Assembly (NCBI GenBank): GCA_021107855.1
Contig: JAIORZ010000006.1
Span: 32,480-96,479, forward strand
DNA: 64,000 bases
Direction: 5' to 3'
DNA from: an archaeon
GTDB lineage: Archaea; Nanobdellota; Nanobdellia; Pacearchaeales; GW2011-AR1
Part shown: piece by piece, positions 8,946 to 16,151 of the stretch
Layout of the letters: each line of letters begins with the position of its first letter
Position numbering within the stretch: position 1 is the first letter of the stretch
Position numbers and translations under genes: made by a program
Notes under the pieces: model-generated
What the model was told of the DNA's origin: nothing
The model's input: only the letters and a program-made list of their open reading frames with translations
Databases searched by the model: none

Positions 8946-9043
8946 TTTTTGGTAGGAAAGATTTTTAAATGGAATTTTTCTTGGTTTGATAGGATAGAGA
9001 TGTCCGAGTGTACAGCGCTGAAGAGTTCTGTAATTTTAAGACG

Positions 9044-9298
9044 ATGGCAAGACGAGGAAAGAAGATTAGGGAGAAGGGAAAGTTGAAGCTTAGTTCTTAC
9101 TTTAAAAATATTGACGACGGTGCGCGTGTTGCTGTTGTTGACGAGAGGGGAGTTCGTATGAGTTTTCCGCCTAGGCTTCGGGGAATGAGTGGGAAGGTTA
9201 AGTGTAGTCGTGGGAAGTTTAAGGAAGTTGAAATTAAAGACGGGGACAAGTTGAAGACTTTTGTTATTCATCCTGTTCATTTGAAGGTGTTGGCATGA
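9044..9298 (+). CDS. rpl21e: ribosomal protein L21e (short form). Start taken at the internal ATG (MARRGKK); the track ORF begins at 9008
   Basis: MARRGKKIREKGKLKLSSYFKNIDDGARVAVVDERG...RLRGMSGKV matches the L21e core; conserved L21e-RpoF-DUF655 neighbourhood. Confidence 0.7.
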   Translation: MARRGKKIREKGKLKLSSYFKNIDDGARVAVVDERGVRMSFPPRLRGMSGKVKCSRGKFKEVEIKDGDKLKTFVIHPVHLKVLA

Positions 9299-9597
9299 TA
9301 AAGGAATCGAGACCTGTTAGTATGACTGAGGTTGTTAAGTTGGTTGGGGATTCGGAGAAGGCGGAGGAGATTAAGAGATTTGTTAAGAATTTTGATGTTT
9401 TGAAAGTTGAAAAGGCGGAGGAATTAGCTAAGGAAATTGAGGCGCTTGATTTGATTAAGTTGAAGGATCTTCATGTTGTGAAGATTGTGGATTTTGTGCC
9501 GACGGACGCTGAGGAATTGAATAAAGTTTTGGTTGATGTTTCGCTTGACGCGGATGAAGTAAATAAGATTTTGGATATTACTAAAAAATTCAAATAG
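9295..9597 (+). CDS. rpoF: probable RNA polymerase subunit F (Rpo4/RpoF)
   Basis: 100-aa acidic helical protein located between L21e and DUF655, as in conserved archaeal gene order; sequence match is weak. Confidence 0.45.
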   Translation: MIKESRPVSMTEVVKLVGDSEKAEEIKRFVKNFDVLKVEKAEELAKEIEALDLIKLKDLHVVKIVDFVPTDAEELNKVLVDVSLDADEVNKILDITKKFK

Positions 9598-9601
9598 ACT
9601 T

Positions 9602-10138
9602 ATGGCGAAAGAAGAGCACGCAATTATTTTAGACTTTTTACCATATGGTTATCCGCTGGAGAATCGTAGGATGCCGTTGGGGCAAGCGATTGGGATAGGT
9701 GGTTTTACTTTGTTGCAATTGGTTCCTAGGCGTGGCGAGAGGTTTGAGGTTGGAGATAAGGTTTATATTGGGGACGGGAAAAGGGATAAGGTTCAGTATA
9801 TTTTAGGTAGATGTCCGAGGGAGAAATTGACTGAGACTGCGAAAGGTCAGCTTGGGGATTTTGTTGAGGAATCGGTTTTGGATGACGAGGAAAGGTTTGT
9901 TAATTTCTTTAATAAAGCGCAAGCTATAAATACCCGACTTCACCAGTTTGAATTGCTGCCTGGTCTTGGGAAGAAACACACGAGTGCTATTTTGAAGGCT
10001 AGGGAAGAAAAAGAATTTGAATCGTTTGAGGATATTAGGGAACGGGTTAGCAATATACCGTCGCCGGAGAAGGTTGTTAGTAAAAGAATTATGGAGGAGT
10101 TGACAGAAATGCAGAGGCACAATCTGTTTATTTTTTAA
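9602..10138 (+). CDS. DUF655-family archaeal nucleic-acid-binding protein
   Basis: MAKEEHAIILDFLPYGYP...GQAIGIGGFTLLQLVPRRGERFEVGDKVYIG is typical of the DUF655 family that follows L21e/RpoF. Confidence 0.65.
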   Translation: MAKEEHAIILDFLPYGYPLENRRMPLGQAIGIGGFTLLQLVPRRGERFEVGDKVYIGDGKRDKVQYILGRCPREKLTETAKGQLGDFVEESVLDDEERFVNFFNKAQAINTRLHQFELLPGLGKKHTSAILKAREEKEFESFEDIRERVSNIPSPEKVVSKRIMEELTEMQRHNLFIF

Positions 10139-10139
10139 G

Positions 10140-10613
10140 ATGGAAGGAAAGAAAGATTATAAGAGAAAGAAGGAAGAAGATGTTATCTTGGTTAGGGTTT
10201 TGGGTAAAGATATTCGAGGGGATATTAAAATAAGGTCGGCTTTGACTAAGGTTGATGGGGTGTCTTGGGCGATTTCTAATGCTGTTTGTAAGGTTTTGGA
10301 GTTGGATCAGAATGTGAAGTTGCAGGATTTTAAGAAGGATGAATTGAAAAAAATTGAGGAGTTTATGAAGAATTTGGAGGTTCCGAGTTTTTTGAAGAAT
10401 CGGCAGAATGATTTGGAGAGTGGAGAGGATTTGCATATTAGTGGGGCGGATTTGAAGTTGAGGAAGGAGTTTGATATTAAGAGACTTAAGAAGATTAGGT
10501 CGTATAAGGGTGTTCGGCATGTTGCTGGATTGCCAGTTAGAGGGCAGAGAACTAAAGCTAATTTTAGGAGGAATAGGAAGCCGTCCGTTGCTGCGGCGAA
10601 GAAGAAAGGATAG
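10140..10613 (+). CDS. rps13: 30S ribosomal protein S13
   Basis: DVILVRVLGKDIRGDIKIRSALTKVDGVSWAISNAVCKVLELD...GVRHVAGLPVRGQRTKAN. Confidence 0.9.
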   Translation: MEGKKDYKRKKEEDVILVRVLGKDIRGDIKIRSALTKVDGVSWAISNAVCKVLELDQNVKLQDFKKDELKKIEEFMKNLEVPSFLKNRQNDLESGEDLHISGADLKLRKEFDIKRLKKIRSYKGVRHVAGLPVRGQRTKANFRRNRKPSVAAAKKKG

Positions 10614-11185
10614 TGGGAGATATTAAAAGAAAACGTAAATTGTTTAGTCGTCCGAAGAAGCTGTATGACCGGGCTAGGATGGACGAGGAGAATGTTTTGG
10701 TGAAGCGGTATGGGTTGAAAAATAAGAGGGAAATTTGGAAGGCGAAGAGTGCGGTTTCTAAGTTGAGGCGTAGGGCGAAGGGTTTGATTGGGGCGAGTGA
10801 CGAGGAGCAGAGGGCGTTTTTTGAGAAGTTGGGTAAGGTTGGGTTTAATATTACAGATATTTCTGATGTTTTGGCTTTGACTGAGGAGAATATTTTTGAC
10901 AGGCGATTGCAGACTTTTGTTGTTAGGAAAAAATTGGCGACTACTCCTAAGGGTGCGCGACAGTTGATTGTTCATAAGAATGTTTTGGTTGATGGGAAGA
11001 TTGTGAATATTCCGTCGTTTGTTGTGACTCTGGAGCTTGAGGGGAAGATTGCTTTGAAGGAGAGGAAGGTTAAGCCAAAGAAAGAAGTTGTTGAGGATAA
11101 GCCTGAAGAACCTGTTGTTGAGGAGAATATTAAAGAGGAGGCCCCATTGGATAATAAAGATCAAACGGGGCAAGATAAAGAATAA
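10613..11185 (+). CDS. rps4: 30S ribosomal protein S4 (GTG start overlapping the S13 stop; long acidic C-terminal tail)
   Basis: GDIKRKRKLFSRPKKLYD...RRLQTFVVRKKLATTPKGARQLIVHKNVLVDGKIVNIPSFVV (S4 domain). Confidence 0.9.
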   Translation: MGDIKRKRKLFSRPKKLYDRARMDEENVLVKRYGLKNKREIWKAKSAVSKLRRRAKGLIGASDEEQRAFFEKLGKVGFNITDISDVLALTEENIFDRRLQTFVVRKKLATTPKGARQLIVHKNVLVDGKIVNIPSFVVTLELEGKIALKERKVKPKKEVVEDKPEEPVVEENIKEEAPLDNKDQTGQDKE

Positions 11186-11574
11186 TGGCAAAGAAAGAAG
11201 AAGAGAATATTGGGATTGTGAATATTTATGCGACTTTTAATAATACGATTGCGACTGTGACGGATTTGGCTGGGAATACGATTGGGCGGATTAGTGGTGG
11301 GCAGATTACGAAGCATGATAGGATGCGGGCGAACCCGACGATCGCGATGTTTATTGCTAAGAGAGTTCAGGAGATTTGTAGGGATTACAGGATTAATGCG
11401 GTTTACGTTAGGATGAAGGGGCAGACTGGGGCGACTGGGGTTGGACCTGGGGCGCATGCGATTGTTAGGACGTTGACGAAGGAAGGTATGAAGATTTTGA
11501 GTATGGCGGAGACTACTGCTACTGCTCGAGGTGGACCGAAGAAGAAGGGAGGTCGGAGAGGTCGGAGACCATAA
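11185..11574 (+). CDS. rps11: 30S ribosomal protein S11
   Basis: IGIVNIYATFNNTIATVTDLAGNTIGRISGGQ...GVGPGAHAIVRTLTKEGMKI; a perfect hairpin ATGAAATTAAAAATTTCAT follows the stop. Confidence 0.9.
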   Translation: MAKKEEENIGIVNIYATFNNTIATVTDLAGNTIGRISGGQITKHDRMRANPTIAMFIAKRVQEICRDYRINAVYVRMKGQTGATGVGPGAHAIVRTLTKEGMKILSMAETTATARGGPKKKGGRRGRRP

Positions 11575-11706
11575 TGAAATTAAAAATTTCATCGGGGGTG
11601 GGTATTTGGTATTCGGACGCTTCGCTGGTCGGGGCTTGGCGAATTGAATTAGGGAATAAATTTGGGAGTATAAACTTATAAACTGATAATTTGATAAAAT
11701 ATTAAG

Positions 11707-12414
11707 ATGGAAAATATAAAAAATACAAGCGAGGAAGTTGTTTTTAGTGTTGAGATGAATGTCAGTTTGGCGAACGCGATTCGGAGGAGTGTCGGTGAGA
11801 TTGATATTTTGGCGATTGATGAATGTGATATTTACAAAAACGATTCTGCACTCTACGACGAGATTATTGCGCATCGGTTGGGTTTGGTAAGTTTGAAGAA
11901 TCAGAAGATGAAGAAGGGTGATGTTGTGGAGTTTAAGTTGAAAGGGAAGGGGGAAGTGGATGGTAAGATGATTTTGGCTGGTGAGATGGGCGCTGAGGTT
12001 ATTTATCCTGAGACTCCGATTGTTTTGTTGGGGGAAGGTCAGCAGTTGGAGATTGTTGCGAGGGCTCGTGCTGGTAAGGGTATTAATCATGCGAAGTTTA
12101 TGCCGGGGCTTGTTTATTATAAACATTTGCCGATGATTAAGTTGAATGCTGAGGGTGAGAAGCAAACTGAGTTGGTTGAGATTTATCCTGAGGTTTTTGA
12201 GATGTATGGCGAGAAAGTGAAGGTGAAGAATGCGTGGAAATGTAATTTGGACGAAGAGGATGTGAAGGATTATCCTGGTGTTGAGGTTTCGTTTGATGAT
12301 AATTTGGTTTTTGCGATTGAGTCGTGGGGACAGATGGAGGCTAAGAAAATTTTTGAGGAATCGTGCAGGGTGTTGAAGAGTAATTTGTTAGAGGTTTCTA
12401 AGGCGGTTAAGTGA
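11707..12414 (+). CDS. rpoD: DNA-directed RNA polymerase subunit D (Rpo3)
   Basis: VEMNVSLANAIRRSVGEIDILAIDECDIYKNDSALYDEIIAHRLGLV; canonical position after S11. Confidence 0.85.
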   Translation: MENIKNTSEEVVFSVEMNVSLANAIRRSVGEIDILAIDECDIYKNDSALYDEIIAHRLGLVSLKNQKMKKGDVVEFKLKGKGEVDGKMILAGEMGAEVIYPETPIVLLGEGQQLEIVARARAGKGINHAKFMPGLVYYKHLPMIKLNAEGEKQTELVEIYPEVFEMYGEKVKVKNAWKCNLDEEDVKDYPGVEVSFDDNLVFAIESWGQMEAKKIFEESCRVLKSNLLEVSKAVK

Positions 12415-12776
12415 TGGAAGTTAGCATTAATAAGACCAAGATTGAAAAAAGAATGCGTGGGAAAATGGATGGTGAGTTGGTTAATGTTATTGTGAAGTTG
12501 AAGAAGACGAATCCTGTTGTGGCTAAGGAATTGGCGCGACCGAAGAGACGGTGGCCGGCTGTGAATTTGAAAGATATTGATATGATTAAGGGGGATGTTC
12601 TGGTTGCTGGGAAAGTTTTGAGTGCTGGGGATTTGAGTGGACCGAAAAAAATTGTTGCTTGGGCTGTGAGCGAGAAGGCTTTGGGTAAAATTAATAACAT
12701 GAAAGGGACTTTTGTTTTTATTGGGGAAGAGATGAAGAAGAATCCGAAATTAAATGGTTTTGATATTTTGCGATAA
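12414..12776 (+). CDS. rpl18e: 50S ribosomal protein L18e (ATG overlaps the rpoD TGA as TGATG)
   Basis: MEVSINKTKIEKRMRGKMDGELVNVIVKLKKTNPVVAKELARPKRRWPAVNL matches L18e. Confidence 0.85.
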   Translation: MEVSINKTKIEKRMRGKMDGELVNVIVKLKKTNPVVAKELARPKRRWPAVNLKDIDMIKGDVLVAGKVLSAGDLSGPKKIVAWAVSEKALGKINNMKGTFVFIGEEMKKNPKLNGFDILR

Positions 12777-12966
12777 GATGAAGAATTGTTCTGGAGTTAC
12801 TTATGATGGGAGAAGGTTTCGTTTTTATTCTGATAGTAGAGAAGGATTTAAAAGGTATATGGAAAATGTTGCAGCTAATCCAAACAGAGAGGGTTTGTGG
12901 AGTTCTGAACCTGATAGTACTTTTAATTTGAAAAAAAGTTTGGAGGCGACTTTGATGTTATGGTGA
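12754..12966 (+). CDS. small ORF (70 aa) in the L18e-L13 spacer; paralogous to the small ORF at 13352-13555
   Basis: Protein-level similarity to the second copy (VT..G....YSDSRE.F...LW..EPDS....L.EATLML versus VT.VPG....YSEDEKREF...LW..NPDN....L.EATLL). Confidence 0.3.
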   Translation: MVLIFCDKMKNCSGVTYDGRRFRFYSDSREGFKRYMENVAANPNREGLWSSEPDSTFNLKKSLEATLMLW

Positions 12967-13355
12967 AAATAATTTATGACGGTGAAGGAGCGGTTTTTGG
13001 TAGGTTGGCTAGTGTTGTTGCTAAAGATTTGTTGAAGGGCGAGAACGTTGATGTTGTTAATTGTGAGAAGATTATTATTTCTGGGGATAAGAAGTTGTTG
13101 GCGAAAAAGATTTTGACGAAGAGAGAAATGGGAAGTGGTGGTTCGATGAAGGGACCGAAATATCCTAGGGTTGCTGATAAGTTGGTTAAGAGAATGATTA
13201 GGGGGATGTTGCCGCGGGATAGGGCGAAGGGGAGAGATGCTTTTAGAAATTTGAAGTGTTATGTCGGCGGGAAAAGTGAAGGAGCTGTTAAATTAAATCA
13301 TAGAAAGCCGATGAGGTTTGTTTCGGTTGAGGAAATTGTGAGGTTGTTGAAATGA
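12960..13355 (+). CDS. rpl13: 50S ribosomal protein L13
   Basis: VKIIYDGEGAVFGRLASVVAKDLLKGENVDVVNCEKIIISG...VKRMIRGMLPRDRAKGRDAFRNLKCY. Confidence 0.9.
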   Translation: MVKIIYDGEGAVFGRLASVVAKDLLKGENVDVVNCEKIIISGDKKLLAKKILTKREMGSGGSMKGPKYPRVADKLVKRMIRGMLPRDRAKGRDAFRNLKCYVGGKSEGAVKLNHRKPMRFVSVEEIVRLLK

Positions 13356-13555
13356 ACGGAGAATTGTATTGTGGAATAATTAGAATGAATAAAGTTACTG
13401 GAGTTCCTGGACAAGAAGTTGTTTTATATTCTGAGGATGAAAAAAGAGAATTCGATTATAAAACTAAGACACATGAGAAAGATATTGAAAGTTATCTCTG
13501 GATTGTAAATCCTGACAATATGCAAACGTTGATGGAGGCCACATTATTAGAATGA
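13352..13555 (+). CDS. small ORF (67 aa) in the L13-S9 spacer; paralogous to 12754-12966
   Basis: See 12754-12966; both ORFs fill unusually long (~180-195 nt) spacers inside a normally compact operon. Confidence 0.3.
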   Translation: MNGELYCGIIRMNKVTGVPGQEVVLYSEDEKREFDYKTKTHEKDIESYLWIVNPDNMQTLMEATLLE

Positions 13556-13959
13556 AGGATAATAAGTTGGTTGTTTCGGGGAAACGGAAGACTGCGGTTG
13601 CTAAGGCTACGATTGGAGAGGGAACTGGTGTTGTGACTTTTAATAAGAGGCCTATATCTTTTCTTAGTAGTTTGCAGCAGTTGGAGATTAGTGAGCCGTT
13701 GATTATTGCGAAGGATGTTTTGGGTGAGTTGAATTTTGATATTGCTTTGAATGTGAAGGGTGGCGGGATTGCTTGTCAGGTTGAGGCGGGTCGGTTGGCG
13801 ATTGCGAAGGCGATTGTTGGTTTTGTTGGGAAGGATGATGTGAAGCATGCGTTTTTGGCGTATGATAGAAATATGTTGGTTGCGGATACTCGTCGGAAGG
13901 AGACTTGTAAGCCTGGGGATTCTAAGGCGCGGGCGAATAGGCAGACGTCGTTTAGATAA
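13552..13959 (+). CDS. rps9: 30S ribosomal protein S9
   Basis: GKRKTAVAKATIGEGTGVVTFNKRPI...GGGIACQVEAGRLAIAKAIVGF...DTRRKETCKPGDSKARANRQTSFR. Confidence 0.9.
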   Translation: MKDNKLVVSGKRKTAVAKATIGEGTGVVTFNKRPISFLSSLQQLEISEPLIIAKDVLGELNFDIALNVKGGGIACQVEAGRLAIAKAIVGFVGKDDVKHAFLAYDRNMLVADTRRKETCKPGDSKARANRQTSFR

Positions 13960-14523
13960 TTATTTTCTTGGCTTCAAATAACTTTTCAATTTCCGTTGAG
14001 CCGCGTAGAATATCTCTGGATTGATTATTGGTTGGTGATTGCCTTTGTGAATTTTGCCGTCGAATTTGATTTCTCCTAAGTAGGTTCGGTTGGTGAGGAC
14101 TTTTTTGAGACCGTTGACTGATAGGGAGAAGTTTTTGGAGAGGGAGTTTAGGGAGTAGTTTCGTGCGAGGAAGGTTTTGAAGAGGGAGTGGATGCGGATT
14201 GAGTTTTCGTTTGGAGTGAGGTTGCCGTTTGTTGCGTCGTAGCCTAGGGGTGGGCGAGTTTGGAGTTTGCCGAGGAATGCCATTTTTTGCATGCCTTTTT
14301 TTTGTTTTGCTCCTGGACTGCTGCCGTAATTTCTGAATGTGTCTAGAATTTTCCAGTCAACTTTTTCTGCGATGTAATTTTGGAAATCTTCTTTTTTGGT
14401 TGGTGCGAATGTTGCGCAAACTTTGCAGAGCGTTGTGTCGAAGATTTTTGTTTGGGATTTTTCTGTGTAACCGCATTTTTCGCATGGCATGGTTTTGACA
14501 GGAGGGTAGATTTTATAAAACAT
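13960..14523 (-). CDS. serine-recombinase-derived protein: zinc ribbon plus recombinase domain, lacking the catalytic resolvase domain (remnant or domesticated)
   Basis: C-terminal PPLGYDATNGNLTPNENSIRIHSLFKTFLARNYSLNSLSKNFSLSVNGLKKVLTNRTYLGEIKFDGKIHKGNHQPIINPEIFYAAQRKL fits the large serine recombinase 'recombinase' domain pattern. The N-terminus has CEKCGY...CKVC. No catalytic Ser/Arg domain. The stop abuts the rps9 stop. Confidence 0.55.
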   Translation of the reverse strand: MFYKIYPPVKTMPCEKCGYTEKSQTKIFDTTLCKVCATFAPTKKEDFQNYIAEKVDWKILDTFRNYGSSPGAKQKKGMQKMAFLGKLQTRPPLGYDATNGNLTPNENSIRIHSLFKTFLARNYSLNSLSKNFSLSVNGLKKVLTNRTYLGEIKFDGKIHKGNHQPIINPEIFYAAQRKLKSYLKPRK

Positions 14524-14540
14524 GGTGTGTTTGTTTTTTT

Positions 14541-14981
14541 ATGAAAGAGAGAGGTTTGATTGGTATGATTATTTTGGGGATGTTTGGATTTTTGTTGATT
14601 GTTGGAATTGGGGCTGGGATTTATTTTTACAATTTTCATGTGTTTAAGGAAATTCGGATTTGTGTTGGGGAGGGTGAGAATACTATGTTCCCTTGTAATA
14701 CTCAGGAAGATTGTGTTAATGTAATGAGGGAGGCTGACTTGGATTTTAGTGTTTTAGATGGGGCTCCGGATTTTGTGGTGAAGAATTTTAATGATATTTT
14801 AGAGAGTGCCGTTTATTGTGAGGAGAGTTGTTTTGTTGGGAATGTGCGTGGGATTGATTATGAGAGTGGGGAGATTGAGGGATTGGAGAGTTGTTTAGAT
14901 GGGGAGGAGGAGTTTGTTATGGAAATTCGGGGGAAGGAAGGGGTTGAGATTTTGAAGTGGATGAAGGATAATAAAGATTAA
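14541..14981 (+). CDS. N-terminally membrane-anchored Cys-containing protein, unknown function
   Basis: TM helix LIGMIILGMFGFLLIVGIGAGIYFY followed by a soluble domain with 7 Cys. Confidence 0.45.
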   Translation: MKERGLIGMIILGMFGFLLIVGIGAGIYFYNFHVFKEIRICVGEGENTMFPCNTQEDCVNVMREADLDFSVLDGAPDFVVKNFNDILESAVYCEESCFVGNVRGIDYESGEIEGLESCLDGEEEFVMEIRGKEGVEILKWMKDNKD

Positions 14982-15958
14982 GATTCGGCTGCCTGTGTTG
15001 CTCCGAATACGATGTTTCCTGTGCATGTTCCGGCGACTCCTGTTGGAACGTAGATTCTCCAGTATGTTGGTTTGATTGTGTCGTCTGTCGTGTCGTCTGT
15101 TCTTGAGGTTAGGTTGAATTGTTTGACTGCTGGGGTCGTGGTTAGGTTTGTGTAGTTTGCTTGGAACTGGGTGAAATTGAGTTGACCTGGAGCTGATGTT
15201 GTTAGGTTGTATTTTTCTAAGTCGACGGAGATATTTTTTGATGCGCCTAAGGTGCAGTTCATTGCGTTGCCGTCGTTCGGATTTGCTCCATATCCTTCTA
15301 GTGAAAGGTTGGCTTTTACGTTCCCGTAATTTGTGATATTAATTGTCTGTTCGTTTGAGACTGATGTTGCATTTATTAGTCCGTAGCTAATCCAGTCTGG
15401 GAGTCCGAGAGAGAGGAGTGGCGAAATTGTTCCTTGTTTTGTTCCTGTCCCTATGCCGCCCTCTGTGTCGTTTGCTTGTATTGTGCAGTTCCAGCTTCCC
15501 GCGTTTGCATAATATAATATTTGGAATGTGCAATTTGCCAGGGCGCTTTCTCCGTCGTCATTAAATCCATTAAATGAAATAAATGATGTGTTTATATGAC
15601 AAGATGAGTTTGTGTAGTGGTTGTTGTTATCGTCTGGGTTTGATTGTGGGATGGATGAGTCGAAAAATGTCGCGTTGGCCGCTGTTATGTCGGCTTCTCC
15701 GTTGTAGTCTACAATGACCGCTACGCACTCGACGAGTGTTGTTGAATTTGGAGTTAGGGTTATGTCTACACCTCCGTTGATTGACATATTGTGTATTTCT
15801 GGGGCTGTGTTCCCGACTGTTAATTCGGATGTTGTGTTTGTATTGGGGGAACCTATTCCTGCTAAGACTTCTTGTGGTGCGAAGGAGAAGAGTGCCAATA
15901 ATAGTAGCACTTCTAAGATTATTAGCGTGATTCCCGTTAATGGATTTTCATTTTTCAT
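14978..15958 (-). CDS. secreted/surface protein, family A paralog 1 (C-terminal motif YWRIYVPxGVAGTCxGxIxFGATQAAxS)
   Basis: N-terminal hydrophobic leader with an embedded Glu (GITLIILEVLLLLALF), N-x-S/T-rich body, conserved C-terminus shared with 16470-17462 and 47945-49114. Confidence 0.6.
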   Translation of the reverse strand: MKNENPLTGITLIILEVLLLLALFSFAPQEVLAGIGSPNTNTTSELTVGNTAPEIHNMSINGGVDITLTPNSTTLVECVAVIVDYNGEADITAANATFFDSSIPQSNPDDNNNHYTNSSCHINTSFISFNGFNDDGESALANCTFQILYYANAGSWNCTIQANDTEGGIGTGTKQGTISPLLSLGLPDWISYGLINATSVSNEQTINITNYGNVKANLSLEGYGANPNDGNAMNCTLGASKNISVDLEKYNLTTSAPGQLNFTQFQANYTNLTTTPAVKQFNLTSRTDDTTDDTIKPTYWRIYVPTGVAGTCTGNIVFGATQAAES

Positions 15959-16151
15959 TTTTGATTATGGCTTTCCAGTAGATTTTAGTTCGGCCTTTTT
16001 TCTCGAGCCATCCCTTTTCATGCATTTCTTCGAGATATTTCTCTGTGGTGTTCCAGGATATTTTTGTGGCTTTTGATATCTCGGTTGTGTTTTGATATTT
16101 AGGATTTTTGATTAGTGTGATTAGGATTTGGGTTTCGTATGGATTTAGCAT
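15948..16151 (-). CDS. small winged-helix DNA-binding protein
   Basis: 67 aa, ETQILITLIKNPKYQNTTEISKATKISWNTTEKYLEEMHEKGWLEKK is a typical wHTH recognition helix plus wing. Confidence 0.5.
   Translation of the reverse strand: MLNPYETQILITLIKNPKYQNTTEISKATKISWNTTEKYLEEMHEKGWLEKKGRTKIYWKAIIKNEK

What the first reader, a model, noticed from the sequence alone, without database searches (positions are those of the whole stretch)
12754..13555. Two homologous small ORFs occupy the L18e-L13 and L13-S9 spacers of the otherwise conserved r-protein operon
The spacers (12777-12959 and 13356-13551) are ~185-195 nt, which is long for this operon. Each contains a 67-70-aa ORF. The two are clearly related at the protein level (shared VT..G....YS[DE]..[RK]E.F / LW...PD[SN]....L.EATL[ML]L) and weakly at the DNA level. 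A possible degenerate third copy (MKLKISSGVGIWYSDAS...) sits in the S11-RpoD spacer, 11575-11682. These may be small accessory proteins, selfish mini-insertions, or regulatory RNA elements that happen to be translatable.
Basis: seen in the sequence. Interest (0 to 1): 0.55.

Follow-up and report, generated by a model that had tools for sequence, protein, structure and literature searches.

The report
Swappable small protein genes flanking rpl13
Two short genes wedged on either side of the ribosomal protein L13 gene of this tiny-celled (DPANN, Pacearchaeota-like) archaeon are real, distantly related protein genes. They belong to an undescribed, fast-changing family that related strains gain, lose or swap, and its job is still unknown.

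Summary
Both ORFs are real genes. ORF A (12778-12966, 62 aa) and ORF B (13352-13555, 67 aa) exactly fill the L18e/L13 and L13/S9 gaps, with start and stop codons touching or overlapping the neighbouring genes.

They are distant paralogs (27% identity, shuffle p about 2e-4 to 1e-3) of a small orphan family. An exhaustive HMM search of 1.84 billion proteins found about 12 real clusters. Every member whose context I read lies beside rpl13, on one side or the other, in Pacearchaeota-like metagenomes.

- **Coding evidence:** dN/dS is 0.10 for A against a close strain. AlphaFold gives a confident beta-beta-alpha-beta-alpha fold (pLDDT 92).
- **No known relative:** Pfam, NCBIfam, PHROG, PADLOC, PDB and Rfam all gave no match.
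- **Dispensable and cassette-like:** 28 of 42 related loci have an empty L18e/L13 junction. A strain about 94% identical in DNA has A but lacks B. All 15 members are AT3-richer than their flanks.

The claimed DNA-level similarity and the "third copy" are not supported. The S11/RpoD spacer holds an unrelated 99-nt hairpin-bearing insertion. Function is unknown; a link to L13 or the ribosome is inferred only from position.

The parts
12778..12966 (+). ORF A, 62 aa (MKNCSGVTYDGRRF...EATLMLW). A small-protein gene in the L18e/L13 junction. It starts 1 nt after the L18e stop and its stop overlaps the L13 start by 7 nt (ATGGTGA).
   Evidence: A 95%-identical ortholog sits at the same place in L007/L008. 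dN/dS is 0.10 and dS 0.20, like the flanks (binomial p = 0.002). AlphaFold pLDDT 92.1, beta-beta-alpha-beta-alpha. The alternative start at 12754 is closed by a TAA in L007.
13352..13555 (+). ORF B, 67 aa (MNGELYCGIIRMNKVTG...MEATLLE). A paralogous small-protein gene in the L13/S9 junction, with ATGA overlaps at both ends.
   Evidence: Family HMMs recover it (E 2.5e-4 with A and B left out; E 1.9e-6 leave-one-out). It is annotated as hypothetical protein K8R30_02690. It is absent from strain L007, a clean 200-nt indel flanked by AATGAA, and present and identical in strains L080/L081.
12942..12946 (+). GGAGG inside ORF A, 13 nt before the L13 ATG. It is either a Shine-Dalgarno-like element or simply the codons of the family's helix-2 'EA' motif.
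13534..13538 (+). GGAGG inside ORF B, 13 nt before the S9 ATG, at the same distance as in ORF A. This block is the only DNA-level resemblance between A and B.
   Evidence: The other family members mostly lack it.
12960..13355 (+). rpl13 (uL13), the gene that every family member read in context flanks, upstream or downstream.
11575..11673 (+). A separate 99-nt insertion in the S11/RpoD spacer, not a family member. It has an 8-bp hairpin, ATGAAATT-AAA-AATTTCAT (11574-11592), followed by a G/T-rich tail, and is flanked by ATAA repeats.
   Evidence: Absent from L007 and L001. A similar 82-nt insert at the same site in L020/L022 shows one compensatory base-pair change in the hairpin. The tail is not significantly structured (z -0.09). 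Its 35-aa ORF is unrelated to the family.

Best explanation
ORF A and ORF B are genuine, translated small-protein genes. They are two deeply diverged members of one orphan family of 41-91 aa proteins. These proteins are hydrophilic and neutral to acidic, with a predicted beta-beta-alpha-beta-alpha fold. The conserved core reads [YF]xG[VIL]I ... [FY]Y ... W..xP...SxL.

**Shown:**
- Every family member whose context I read lies in one of the two junctions flanking rpl13, in the S13-S4-S11-rpoD-L18e-L13-S9 operon of a Pacearchaeota-like DPANN clade.
- Each is wired into the operon as a translationally coupled cistron. Its start lies within -4 to +1 nt of the upstream stop, and its stop lies from 1 nt before to 8 nt past the downstream start.
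- They are dispensable accessory cassettes, not core genes.
  - Most relatives have empty, perfectly tight junctions.
  - Closely related strains differ in which slot is filled.
  - Sequence relatedness cuts across slots.
  - Codon composition is always AT3-richer than in the flanking r-protein genes.

**Inferred:**
- Gain, loss and replacement happen by homologous recombination through the highly conserved flanking r-protein genes.
- Once in place, a cassette is inherited vertically under purifying selection (omega about 0.1-0.4).
- Because the only invariant is adjacency to rpl13, and the proteins are not basic, they most likely act at the protein level together with L13, or with the ribosome region around it. 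A co-translationally assembling partner or escort is one possibility. A role as an rRNA-binding ribosomal protein is less likely.
For: **Coding**
- Thirteen junction ORFs in the window and related loci all fill their spacer with overlapping or abutting start and stop codons.
- Window against L007: 6 synonymous and 3 non-synonymous changes in frame, dN/dS 0.10, dS 0.20, similar to the flanks at 0.17-0.33. The other two frames give 0.39-0.53; p = 0.002.
- L035 against L078, B-slot pair: dS 0.86, like the flanks; omega 0.34.
- AlphaFold2 of A with a 13-sequence alignment: pLDDT 92.1, pTM 0.76. The B model has the same order of secondary-structure elements at low confidence.

**Family and position**
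- Leave-one-out HMMs rank 8 of 12 members first among 1213 decoy ORFs.
- The exhaustive HMM search of 1.84e9 representatives finds only 12 real clusters.
- The three newly found members lie in the same junctions: L18e/L13, after L18e, and L13/S9. P0009 also lies at L13/S9.
- No ORF-sized gaps occur at S13/S4 or S4/S11.

**Accessory and mobile behaviour**
- 14 of 42 loci have the L18e/L13 slot filled and 2 of 42 the L13/S9 slot. Presence is scattered over the host tree.
- L007, about 94% identical to the window in DNA, has A but not B.
- L014 and L078 (L13 90% identical) have opposite slots filled, and their ORFs are 23% identical.
- The strongest pairwise match is across slots: L015 in the A slot against L035 in the B slot, E 8.6e-8.
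- L027 against L076: ORF dS 0.96 against flank dS 0.27-0.38, which indicates replacement.
- All 15 ORFs have lower GC3 (mean -0.14) and higher A3 than their flanks. In the window, r-protein genes have GC3 0.43-0.50, A 0.27 and B 0.25.
- Recombination in the operon is visible. The window and L080 are identical in rpoD, A and B but differ at 22 sites in the 3' half of rpl13.

**Protein character**
- Family pI is 4.5-8.9, against about 10 for the flanking r-proteins.
Against: - Function is not shown. There are no expression, proteomic or interaction data, and no fold or sequence relative.
- The selection estimate for A rests on 9 substitutions.
- A's family membership is statistically weak on sequence alone (E 1.2 leave-one-out).
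- No donor of B was found.
- The window's rpl13 3' tract remains closest to L007, so co-transfer of flank sequence together with B is not demonstrated.
- Low GC3 could reflect weak translational selection rather than foreign origin.
- The excess ORF dS in L027/L076 could be inflated by alignment error at 42% identity.
- A dispensable, patchy gene is hard to reconcile with a core ribosome role.
Confidence: 0.55

Rival explanations
1. These are purely selfish or hitch-hiking cassettes. The ORFs give the host nothing. They persist because they sit between some of the most conserved, most recombinogenic and most highly expressed genes, so homologous recombination spreads them ('homing without an endonuclease'). 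Tight start/stop overlaps are simply what the operon tolerates.
For: - Patchy presence among close relatives.
- Strain-level presence or absence of B.
- AT3-rich composition in all 15 members.
- Slot switching.
- Probable replacement in L027/L076.
- Mosaic recombination tracts in the operon.
- Short direct repeats at two of the three insertions: AATGAA at B and ATAA at the 99-nt insert.
Against: - Purifying selection on the protein: omega 0.10 and 0.34.
- A conserved, confidently predicted fold across deep subfamilies.
- No nuclease, integrase or recombination site, and no room for one.
- Restriction to the two rpl13 flanks rather than any junction of the operon needs an extra explanation.
Confidence: 0.25
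2. These are ancient, vertically inherited paralogs. The clade ancestor had one gene in each slot, as the window does today. The present pattern is then differential loss plus very fast sequence evolution, with no horizontal exchange.
For: - The window carries both slots filled.
- The window/L007 and L035/L078 pairs co-diverge with their flanks.
- 20-aa mini-ORFs in the 56-nt L13/S9 spacers of L019, L020 and L022 look like deletion remnants.
Against: - Similarity does not sort by slot. The best pair is cross-slot, and window B is closest to A-slot members.
- Hosts with 80-90% identical L13 carry ORFs only 16-30% identical, while orthologous pairs evolve only about 2-3 times faster than L13.
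- ORF dS is about three times flank dS in L027/L076.
- B is absent from a strain at dS of about 0.2.
- The model needs many exact deletions that each restore a perfect TAATG or ATGA junction.
Confidence: 0.15
3. These are non-coding regulatory RNA or spacer sequence (an r-protein autoregulatory leader, a processing site or an SD-bearing junction) that is open in one frame by chance.
For: - A GGAGGC block at -18 of the downstream start in both A and B.
- Part of the A/B protein similarity lies in that block.
Against: - No Rfam match at E <= 1.
- No DNA similarity between A and B.
- Every long spacer at these two junctions in relatives is one open frame from upstream stop to downstream start. 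The chance of this is about 0.006-0.008 per locus.
- The substitution pattern is frame-specific.
- Conservation is at the protein level only.
- AlphaFold pLDDT is 92.
- GGAGG is absent from most members.
Confidence: 0.03
4. These are degenerate remnants of free-standing homing endonuclease genes. A GIY-YIG-type fold is also three strands plus helices, and ORF A has GVTY...FYSDS...R spacing reminiscent of GIY...YIG...R (my recollection of the motif).
For: - Intergenic insertion between conserved genes resembles phage seg/mob genes (established knowledge).
- A weak BFVD hit to a NUMOD-domain nuclease: E 0.61, probability 0.16.
Against: - No GIY-YIG or any other Pfam hit in any of 13 members at E <= 1.
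- No GIY-YIG structure among the Foldseek PDB hits shown.
- The Arg and Glu expected for catalysis are not conserved in the family alignment.
- The proteins are under purifying selection at full length, and no longer relatives exist.
Confidence: 0.02

Closest known systems
Non-ribosomal passengers of the archaeal L18e/alpha r-protein cluster (rpoD, rpoN, tRNA-Leu in S13-S4-S11-rpoD-[tRNA-Leu]-L18e-L13-S9-rpoN; PMC10833476)
   Same: A gene that is not a recognised r-protein is embedded in, and co-expressed with, this conserved cluster. tRNA-Leu sits between rpoD and L18e in relatives of the window.
   Different: Those passengers are conserved, annotated and broadly distributed. These ORFs are orphan, hypervariable and dispensable, and they break the otherwise contiguous L18e-L13-S9 block.
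Free-standing homing endonuclease genes and phage 'morons' inserted between conserved genes (established knowledge)
   Same: Small extra genes occupy intergenic junctions of conserved syntenic blocks. Distribution among close relatives is patchy, composition is AT-rich, and spread by recombination through conserved flanks is plausible.
   Different: There is no nuclease domain or motif. There is no own promoter or terminator, since the genes are translationally coupled. They are 41-91 aa long. The host is a cellular DPANN chromosome, not a phage.
Integron gene cassettes
   Same: Small, promoterless, mostly orphan ORFs that are swapped in and out of a fixed expression slot.
   Different: There is no attC-like non-coding recombination site, and no room for one, because the ORFs overlap both neighbours. 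There is no integrase. The conserved neighbouring recombinase-domain gene is present whether or not a cassette is there.
Dedicated r-protein escorts and small lineage-specific ribosome-associated factors (established knowledge: acidic chaperones of single r-proteins in eukaryotes; small archaeal hibernation or dimerisation factors such as aRDF)
   Same: Small, non-basic, fast-evolving and lineage-restricted proteins that are functionally tied to the ribosome. Adjacency of cistrons favours co-translational assembly.
   Different: No sequence or fold similarity to any of them. No interaction evidence. Dispensability among close relatives.
N-terminal domain of bacterial ribosomal protein L9 (beta-beta-alpha-beta-alpha, recalled from memory)
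   Same: The same order of secondary-structure elements and a similar size.
   Different: It does not appear among the Foldseek PDB matches shown, there is no sequence similarity, and L9 is bacterial. This is a topological resemblance only.

Membership tests
Recognised ribosomal protein families (e.g. eL20/LX, other small archaeal r-proteins) | Match to an r-protein Pfam/NCBIfam model or to a solved ribosome chain | tested here: not met
   No Pfam hit for A, B or the 35-aa ORF at E <= 10. None of 13 members hits an r-protein family in Pfam or NCBIfam. The PDB profile search gives nothing below E 1.2. The best Foldseek PDB match has E 0.5.
Recognised ribosomal protein families | Basic, rRNA-binding composition and universal presence within the lineage | tested here: not met
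   Family pI is 4.5-8.9, against 9.8-10.8 for S11, L18e, L13 and S9. The L18e/L13 slot is empty in 28 of 42 related loci.
GIY-YIG (or other) homing endonuclease | GIY-YIG domain model match with conserved catalytic Arg and Glu | tested here: not met
   No PF01541 or other nuclease hit. The only family-wide conserved residues are hydrophobic or structural: Y, G, I, F/Y, W, P, S, L.
Integron cassette | attC recombination site 3' of the ORF and an integron integrase nearby | tested here: not met
   The ORFs abut or overlap both neighbours, leaving no non-coding 3' segment. The only recombinase-like neighbour is a conserved 187-aa fragment-type protein present in the whole clade regardless of cassettes.
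MITE / IS-type transposable element | Terminal inverted repeats, target-site duplication, multiple copies in the genome | tested here: not met
   There are no other copies of any of the three inserts in the 64-kb window or in 80 related loci beyond orthologous sites. Only short direct repeats are present: AATGAA at B and ATAA at the 99-nt insert. The rest of the genome was not searchable.
Rfam r-protein leaders and other structured RNAs | Covariance-model match | tested here: not met
   cmscan of 9000-16000 at E <= 1 gives 0 matches.
Toxin-antitoxin or anti-phage defence small proteins | Match to PADLOC/Pfam TA models; a paired partner gene | tested here: not met
   PADLOC gives 0 of 13 members. 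The neighbours are always r-protein genes.
   B matches clearly. A matches by position, predicted fold and pairwise hits, but only weakly by profile. The 35-aa ORF at 11574-11681 does not match.

The most novel reading that the evidence does not exclude
The family is a previously unrecognised, lineage-specific partner of uL13 or of the ribosome: for example an escort, an assembly factor or a hibernation-type factor. It is encoded directly beside rpl13 so that it is made and assembled co-translationally with it. It also behaves as an exchangeable cassette, drawn from a diverse pool and moved by homologous recombination that uses r-protein genes as homology arms. If so, ribosome-associated functions in DPANN archaea would be modular and strain-variable.
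Probability: 0.2. Interest if true: 0.7.

Novelty: new variant of a known kind. Interest (0 to 1): 0.45.

Why it matters
The L18e-L13-S9 block is among the most conserved and most tightly packed gene strings in archaea (PMC10833476).

This finding shows that, in one DPANN clade, the two junctions around rpl13 act as a variable slot for a family of orphan small proteins. That bears on three questions:
- how streamlined symbiont genomes acquire and express new small genes, here by plugging them into a translationally coupled, highly expressed operon;
- whether ribosome-linked functions can be strain-variable;
- how much real small-protein diversity stays hidden under the label 'hypothetical protein'.

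It also has a practical use. These cassettes and the neighbouring recombination tracts are strain markers inside a locus normally used as a stable phylogenetic marker.

Tried and rejected
- **Known families.** Pfam, NCBIfam, PHROG, PADLOC and a PDB-sequence profile gave nothing credible. Rfam gave nothing.
- **Fold searches.**
  - The B model (pLDDT 61) had no hit below E 3.6.
  - The A model (pLDDT 92) gave best E 0.5 in PDB and 0.38 in BFVD, which is not significant.
- **Phage origin.** tblastn of B gave only an E 0.3 hit to a Synechococcus phage S-CAM1 hypothetical protein, which scores 4.2 bits against the family HMM. A gave no hit. I rejected this lead.
- **DNA repeat or MITE idea.** The inserts show no similarity to each other and have no other copies.
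- **'Third copy'.** Rejected.
- **B imported together with donor rpl13 3' sequence.** The window's tract is still closest to L007 (88% against about 75% for the others), so this is not supported. The later comparison with L080 does show a separate recombination tract there.
- **Literature.** Two searches found no description of these ORFs.
Full report
**Setting.** The window carries the archaeal alpha/L18e r-protein cluster:

| Gene | Coordinates |
|---|---|
| S13 | 10140-10613 |
| S4 | 10613-11185 |
| S11 | 11185-11574 |
| RpoD | 11707-12414 |
| L18e | 12414-12776 |
| L13 | 12960-13355 |
| S9 | 13552-13959 |

The nearest genome representatives are unnamed 'archaeon' and Candidatus Pacearchaeota MAGs. 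ORF B is annotated in NCBI only as 'hypothetical protein K8R30_02690 [archaeon]'. The canonical archaeal arrangement is a contiguous S13-S4-S11-rpoD-(tRNA-Leu)-L18e-L13-S9-rpoN (PMC10833476).

**The observation.**
- The two spacers are exactly as reported, 12777-12959 and 13356-13551. They are anomalous.
  - In L001, whose L13 is 88% identical, the junctions are TAATG and ATGA overlaps.
  - Across 42 related loci, 28 of the L18e/L13 junctions and 36 of the L13/S9 junctions measure between -8 and +1 nt.
- Each window spacer is one open frame.
- The true ORF A is 12778-12966 (62 aa). The longer 12754 start is closed by a stop codon in strain L007.
- ORF B is 13352-13555 (67 aa). Its start overlaps the L13 stop and its stop overlaps the S9 start.
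- A and B are 27% identical (BLASTP E 2e-4; shuffle p 2e-4 to 1.2e-3).
- Removing the C-terminal 'EATL' segment leaves p = 0.03. That segment coincides with a GGAGGC block 18 nt upstream of the next start codon in both genes.
- There is no detectable DNA similarity between A and B.
- The proposed third copy, the 35-aa ORF at 11574-11681, is not related: p 0.16 and 0.98, and -1.6 bits against the family HMM.

**A family, defined by comparative genomics.**
- Scanning metagenome contigs with an L13 alignment gave 67 loci. I measured every junction in them.
- Wherever the L18e/L13 or L13/S9 spacer is at least 120 nt, it is filled end to end by a + strand ORF of 41-85 aa.
  - This holds for 14 loci at L18e/L13 and 2 at L13/S9.
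  - The ORF start lies -4 to +1 nt from the upstream stop. Its stop lies from 1 nt before to 8 nt past the downstream start.
- These ORFs are extremely divergent but align on a common core: [YF]xG[VIL]I, a second strand ending in [FY]Y, a helix, then W..xP...SxL.
- Leave-one-out profile HMMs rank 8 of 12 members first among 1213 decoy ORFs of the window.
  - Clear members include B (E 1.9e-6), L035 (7.5e-9), L014 and L027.
  - A is marginal (E 1.2, rank 2).
- An exhaustive HMMER search of 1.84 billion representative proteins found only 12 genuine clusters, plus one spurious repeat protein.
- The three members that this search added lie in the same junctions, as does P0009. The family is therefore rare, clade-restricted and positionally tied to rpl13.
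- S13/S4 and S4/S11 junctions carry no ORF-sized gaps.
- RpoD/L18e spacers in the sister clade hold tRNA-Leu.

**The ORFs are protein-coding.**
- Window against strain L007, ORF A: 6 synonymous and 3 non-synonymous changes, dN/dS 0.10, dS 0.20.
  - Neighbouring genes give dS 0.17-0.33 and dN/dS 0-0.10.
  - The two alternative frames of A give 0.39-0.53.
  - The excess of synonymous change has p = 0.002.
- The L13/S9-slot pair L035/L078 has dS 0.86, like its flanks (0.68-1.07), and omega 0.34.
- AlphaFold2 with the 13-member alignment predicts ORF A at pLDDT 92.1 and pTM 0.76: strands 4-9 and 14-18, helix 21-33, strand 38-46, helix 48-61.
- The earlier B model has the same order of elements at pLDDT 61.
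- Rfam finds nothing. An RNA-element reading is therefore rejected.

**The ORFs are accessory and cassette-like.**
- Presence is scattered over a tree built from L18e, L13 and S9.
- L007/L008 are about 94% identical to the window in DNA, with S11 and L18e proteins identical in L007. They carry A but lack both B and the S11/RpoD insert, each as a clean indel.
- Strains L080/L081 come from other samples and are 98.9% identical. They carry all three inserts, so the arrangement is not an assembly artefact.
- Hosts with 90% identical L13 (L014 and L078) have opposite slots filled, with ORFs only 23% identical.
- Similarity does not sort by slot. The best pair is L015 at L18e/L13 with L035 at L13/S9, E 8.6e-8, and B is closest to L18e/L13-slot members.
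- Orthologous pairs evolve only about 2-3 times faster than L13. Examples are 95% ORF identity at 93% L13 identity, and 58% at 79%.
- Most pairs, however, are 16-30% identical even at 80-90% L13 identity. This points to many deep subfamilies rather than one rapidly diverging ortholog.
- In L027/L076 the ORF's synonymous divergence (0.96) is about three times that of its flanks (0.27-0.38), which indicates replacement. Alignment error at 42% identity is a caveat.
- All 15 family ORFs have lower GC3 (mean -0.14) and higher A3 (+0.155) than their flanking r-protein genes.
- In the window, r-protein genes have GC3 0.43-0.50, A has 0.27 and B has 0.25.
- Recombination inside the operon is directly visible.
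  - The window and L080 are identical over rpoD, A, B and the 99-nt insert.
  - They differ at 22 sites, mostly synonymous, in 13127-13322 of rpl13.
- 56-nt L13/S9 spacers in L019, L020 and L022 encode a 20-aa mini-ORF ending in the family-typical 'KNG'. This is plausibly a deletion remnant.

**Mechanism: what is shown and what is inferred.**
- Shown:
  - These are real genes of one orphan family.
  - They are translationally coupled geometrically.
  - They are confined to the two rpl13 flanks.
  - They are dispensable and polymorphic.
  - They are under purifying selection once resident.
- Inferred: turnover occurs by homologous recombination through the conserved flanks.
  - No transposase, integrase site, terminal inverted repeats or repeats are present.
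  - The conserved recombinase-domain neighbour is present regardless of cassettes.
- Inferred, with low confidence: the protein acts with L13 or the ribosome.
  - Adjacency to rpl13 on either side is the only invariant.
  - The proteins are neutral to acidic (pI 4.5-8.9), unlike the basic neighbours. That argues against an rRNA-binding r-protein and is compatible with a protein-binding partner.
- The family-wide conserved residues are all core or structural ones. The functional surface is therefore variable or undefined.

**Comparison with known systems.** No membership in any described family could be established (see the membership table).
- In behaviour, the nearest analogues are free-standing selfish genes or morons inserted between conserved genes, and integron-type cassette slots. 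These ORFs lack the defining nuclease or attC/integrase features.
- In position, they resemble non-ribosomal passengers of archaeal r-protein clusters, but they are orphan and hypervariable.
- I therefore rate this a new variant of a known kind. The interest is moderate: a real, undescribed small-protein family with unusual positional specificity and turnover, but with no functional evidence.

Noticed in passing
window 11574-11673 (S11/RpoD spacer); L020:1100-1185, L022:477-562: A 99-nt insertion absent from strains L007 and L001. It begins with an 8-bp hairpin, ATGAAATT-AAA-AATTTCAT, that overlaps the S11 stop codon. A TCGG/G+T-rich tail follows, and ATAA repeats flank the insert. L020/L022 carry a similar 82-nt insert at the same site, with one compensatory change in the hairpin (ATGAAATC...GATTTCAT) and TTCGG repeats. 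It is probably a small non-coding element of unknown role. The tail is not significantly structured (z -0.09 and -1.38).
   Followed up: partly
window 13127-13322 (3' half of rpl13): The window and strains L080/L081 are identical across rpoD, ORF A, ORF B and the 99-nt insert. They differ at 22 sites (only 4 amino acids) in this roughly 200-bp tract. The window, L080 and L007 form three roughly equidistant alleles here, which suggests a gene-conversion or recombination tract right next to the ORF B slot.
   Followed up: partly
window 10351-11184 (S13-S4), indel at 11130-11162: The S13-S4 region shows a second mosaic pattern among the window, L080 and L007: 21 window-specific, 17 L080-specific and 31 L007-specific sites. 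There is also a 33-nt indel in the acidic C-terminal tail of S4.
   Followed up: no
L016:2001-2085, L019:292-374, L021:1887-1969, L026, L029, L034, L042 (RpoD/L18e spacers): The sister clade keeps a tRNA-Leu (anticodon AAG) between rpoD and L18e. The window's clade has lost it (junction -1 nt), and ARAGORN finds no tRNA anywhere in the 64-kb window.
   Followed up: yes
window 13960-14523 (- strand): A 187-aa protein with an N-terminal CxxC...CxxC motif and a partial serine-recombinase 'Recombinase' domain (PF07508, E 3e-6). It lies convergent to S9, where rpoN usually follows. It is conserved at 70-99% identity at this position throughout the clade, whether or not the small ORFs are present. 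It looks like a domesticated recombinase fragment.
   Followed up: partly
L019, L020, L022 L13/S9 spacers (56 nt); L038 (61 nt); L028, L030-L033 L18e/L13 spacers (40-41 nt): These are short residual spacers. The 56-nt ones begin with a duplicate of the S9 start (ATGGATAAG) and encode a 20-aa mini-ORF, MDKKFQRNIMLHFSKEMKNG, whose 'KNG' end matches full-length family members. They may be deletion remnants of a cassette.
   Followed up: partly
window 11676-11682, upstream of rpoD (ATG 11707): A TTATAAA box 25-31 nt upstream of the rpoD start is conserved in all relatives (CTTATAAAC). This suggests an internal archaeal promoter and a leaderless or near-leaderless rpoD-L18e-L13-S9 transcript. The 99-nt insert sits just upstream of it.
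   Followed up: no
window 10140-13959 (r-protein genes): Third-codon-position composition is extreme: G about 0.45, T about 0.40, A 0.05-0.17 and C 0.01-0.06. C-ending codons are almost absent, which gives the coding strand its marked G+T richness.
   Followed up: no
L082 (Synechococcus phage S-CAM1, KU686194.1 154538-154735): A 65-aa hypothetical protein next to the clamp-loader gene shares a local 'Y..E..KREF.YK' stretch with ORF B (tblastn E 0.3). It scores only 4.2 bits against the family HMM, so I judged it a chance match.
   Followed up: yes
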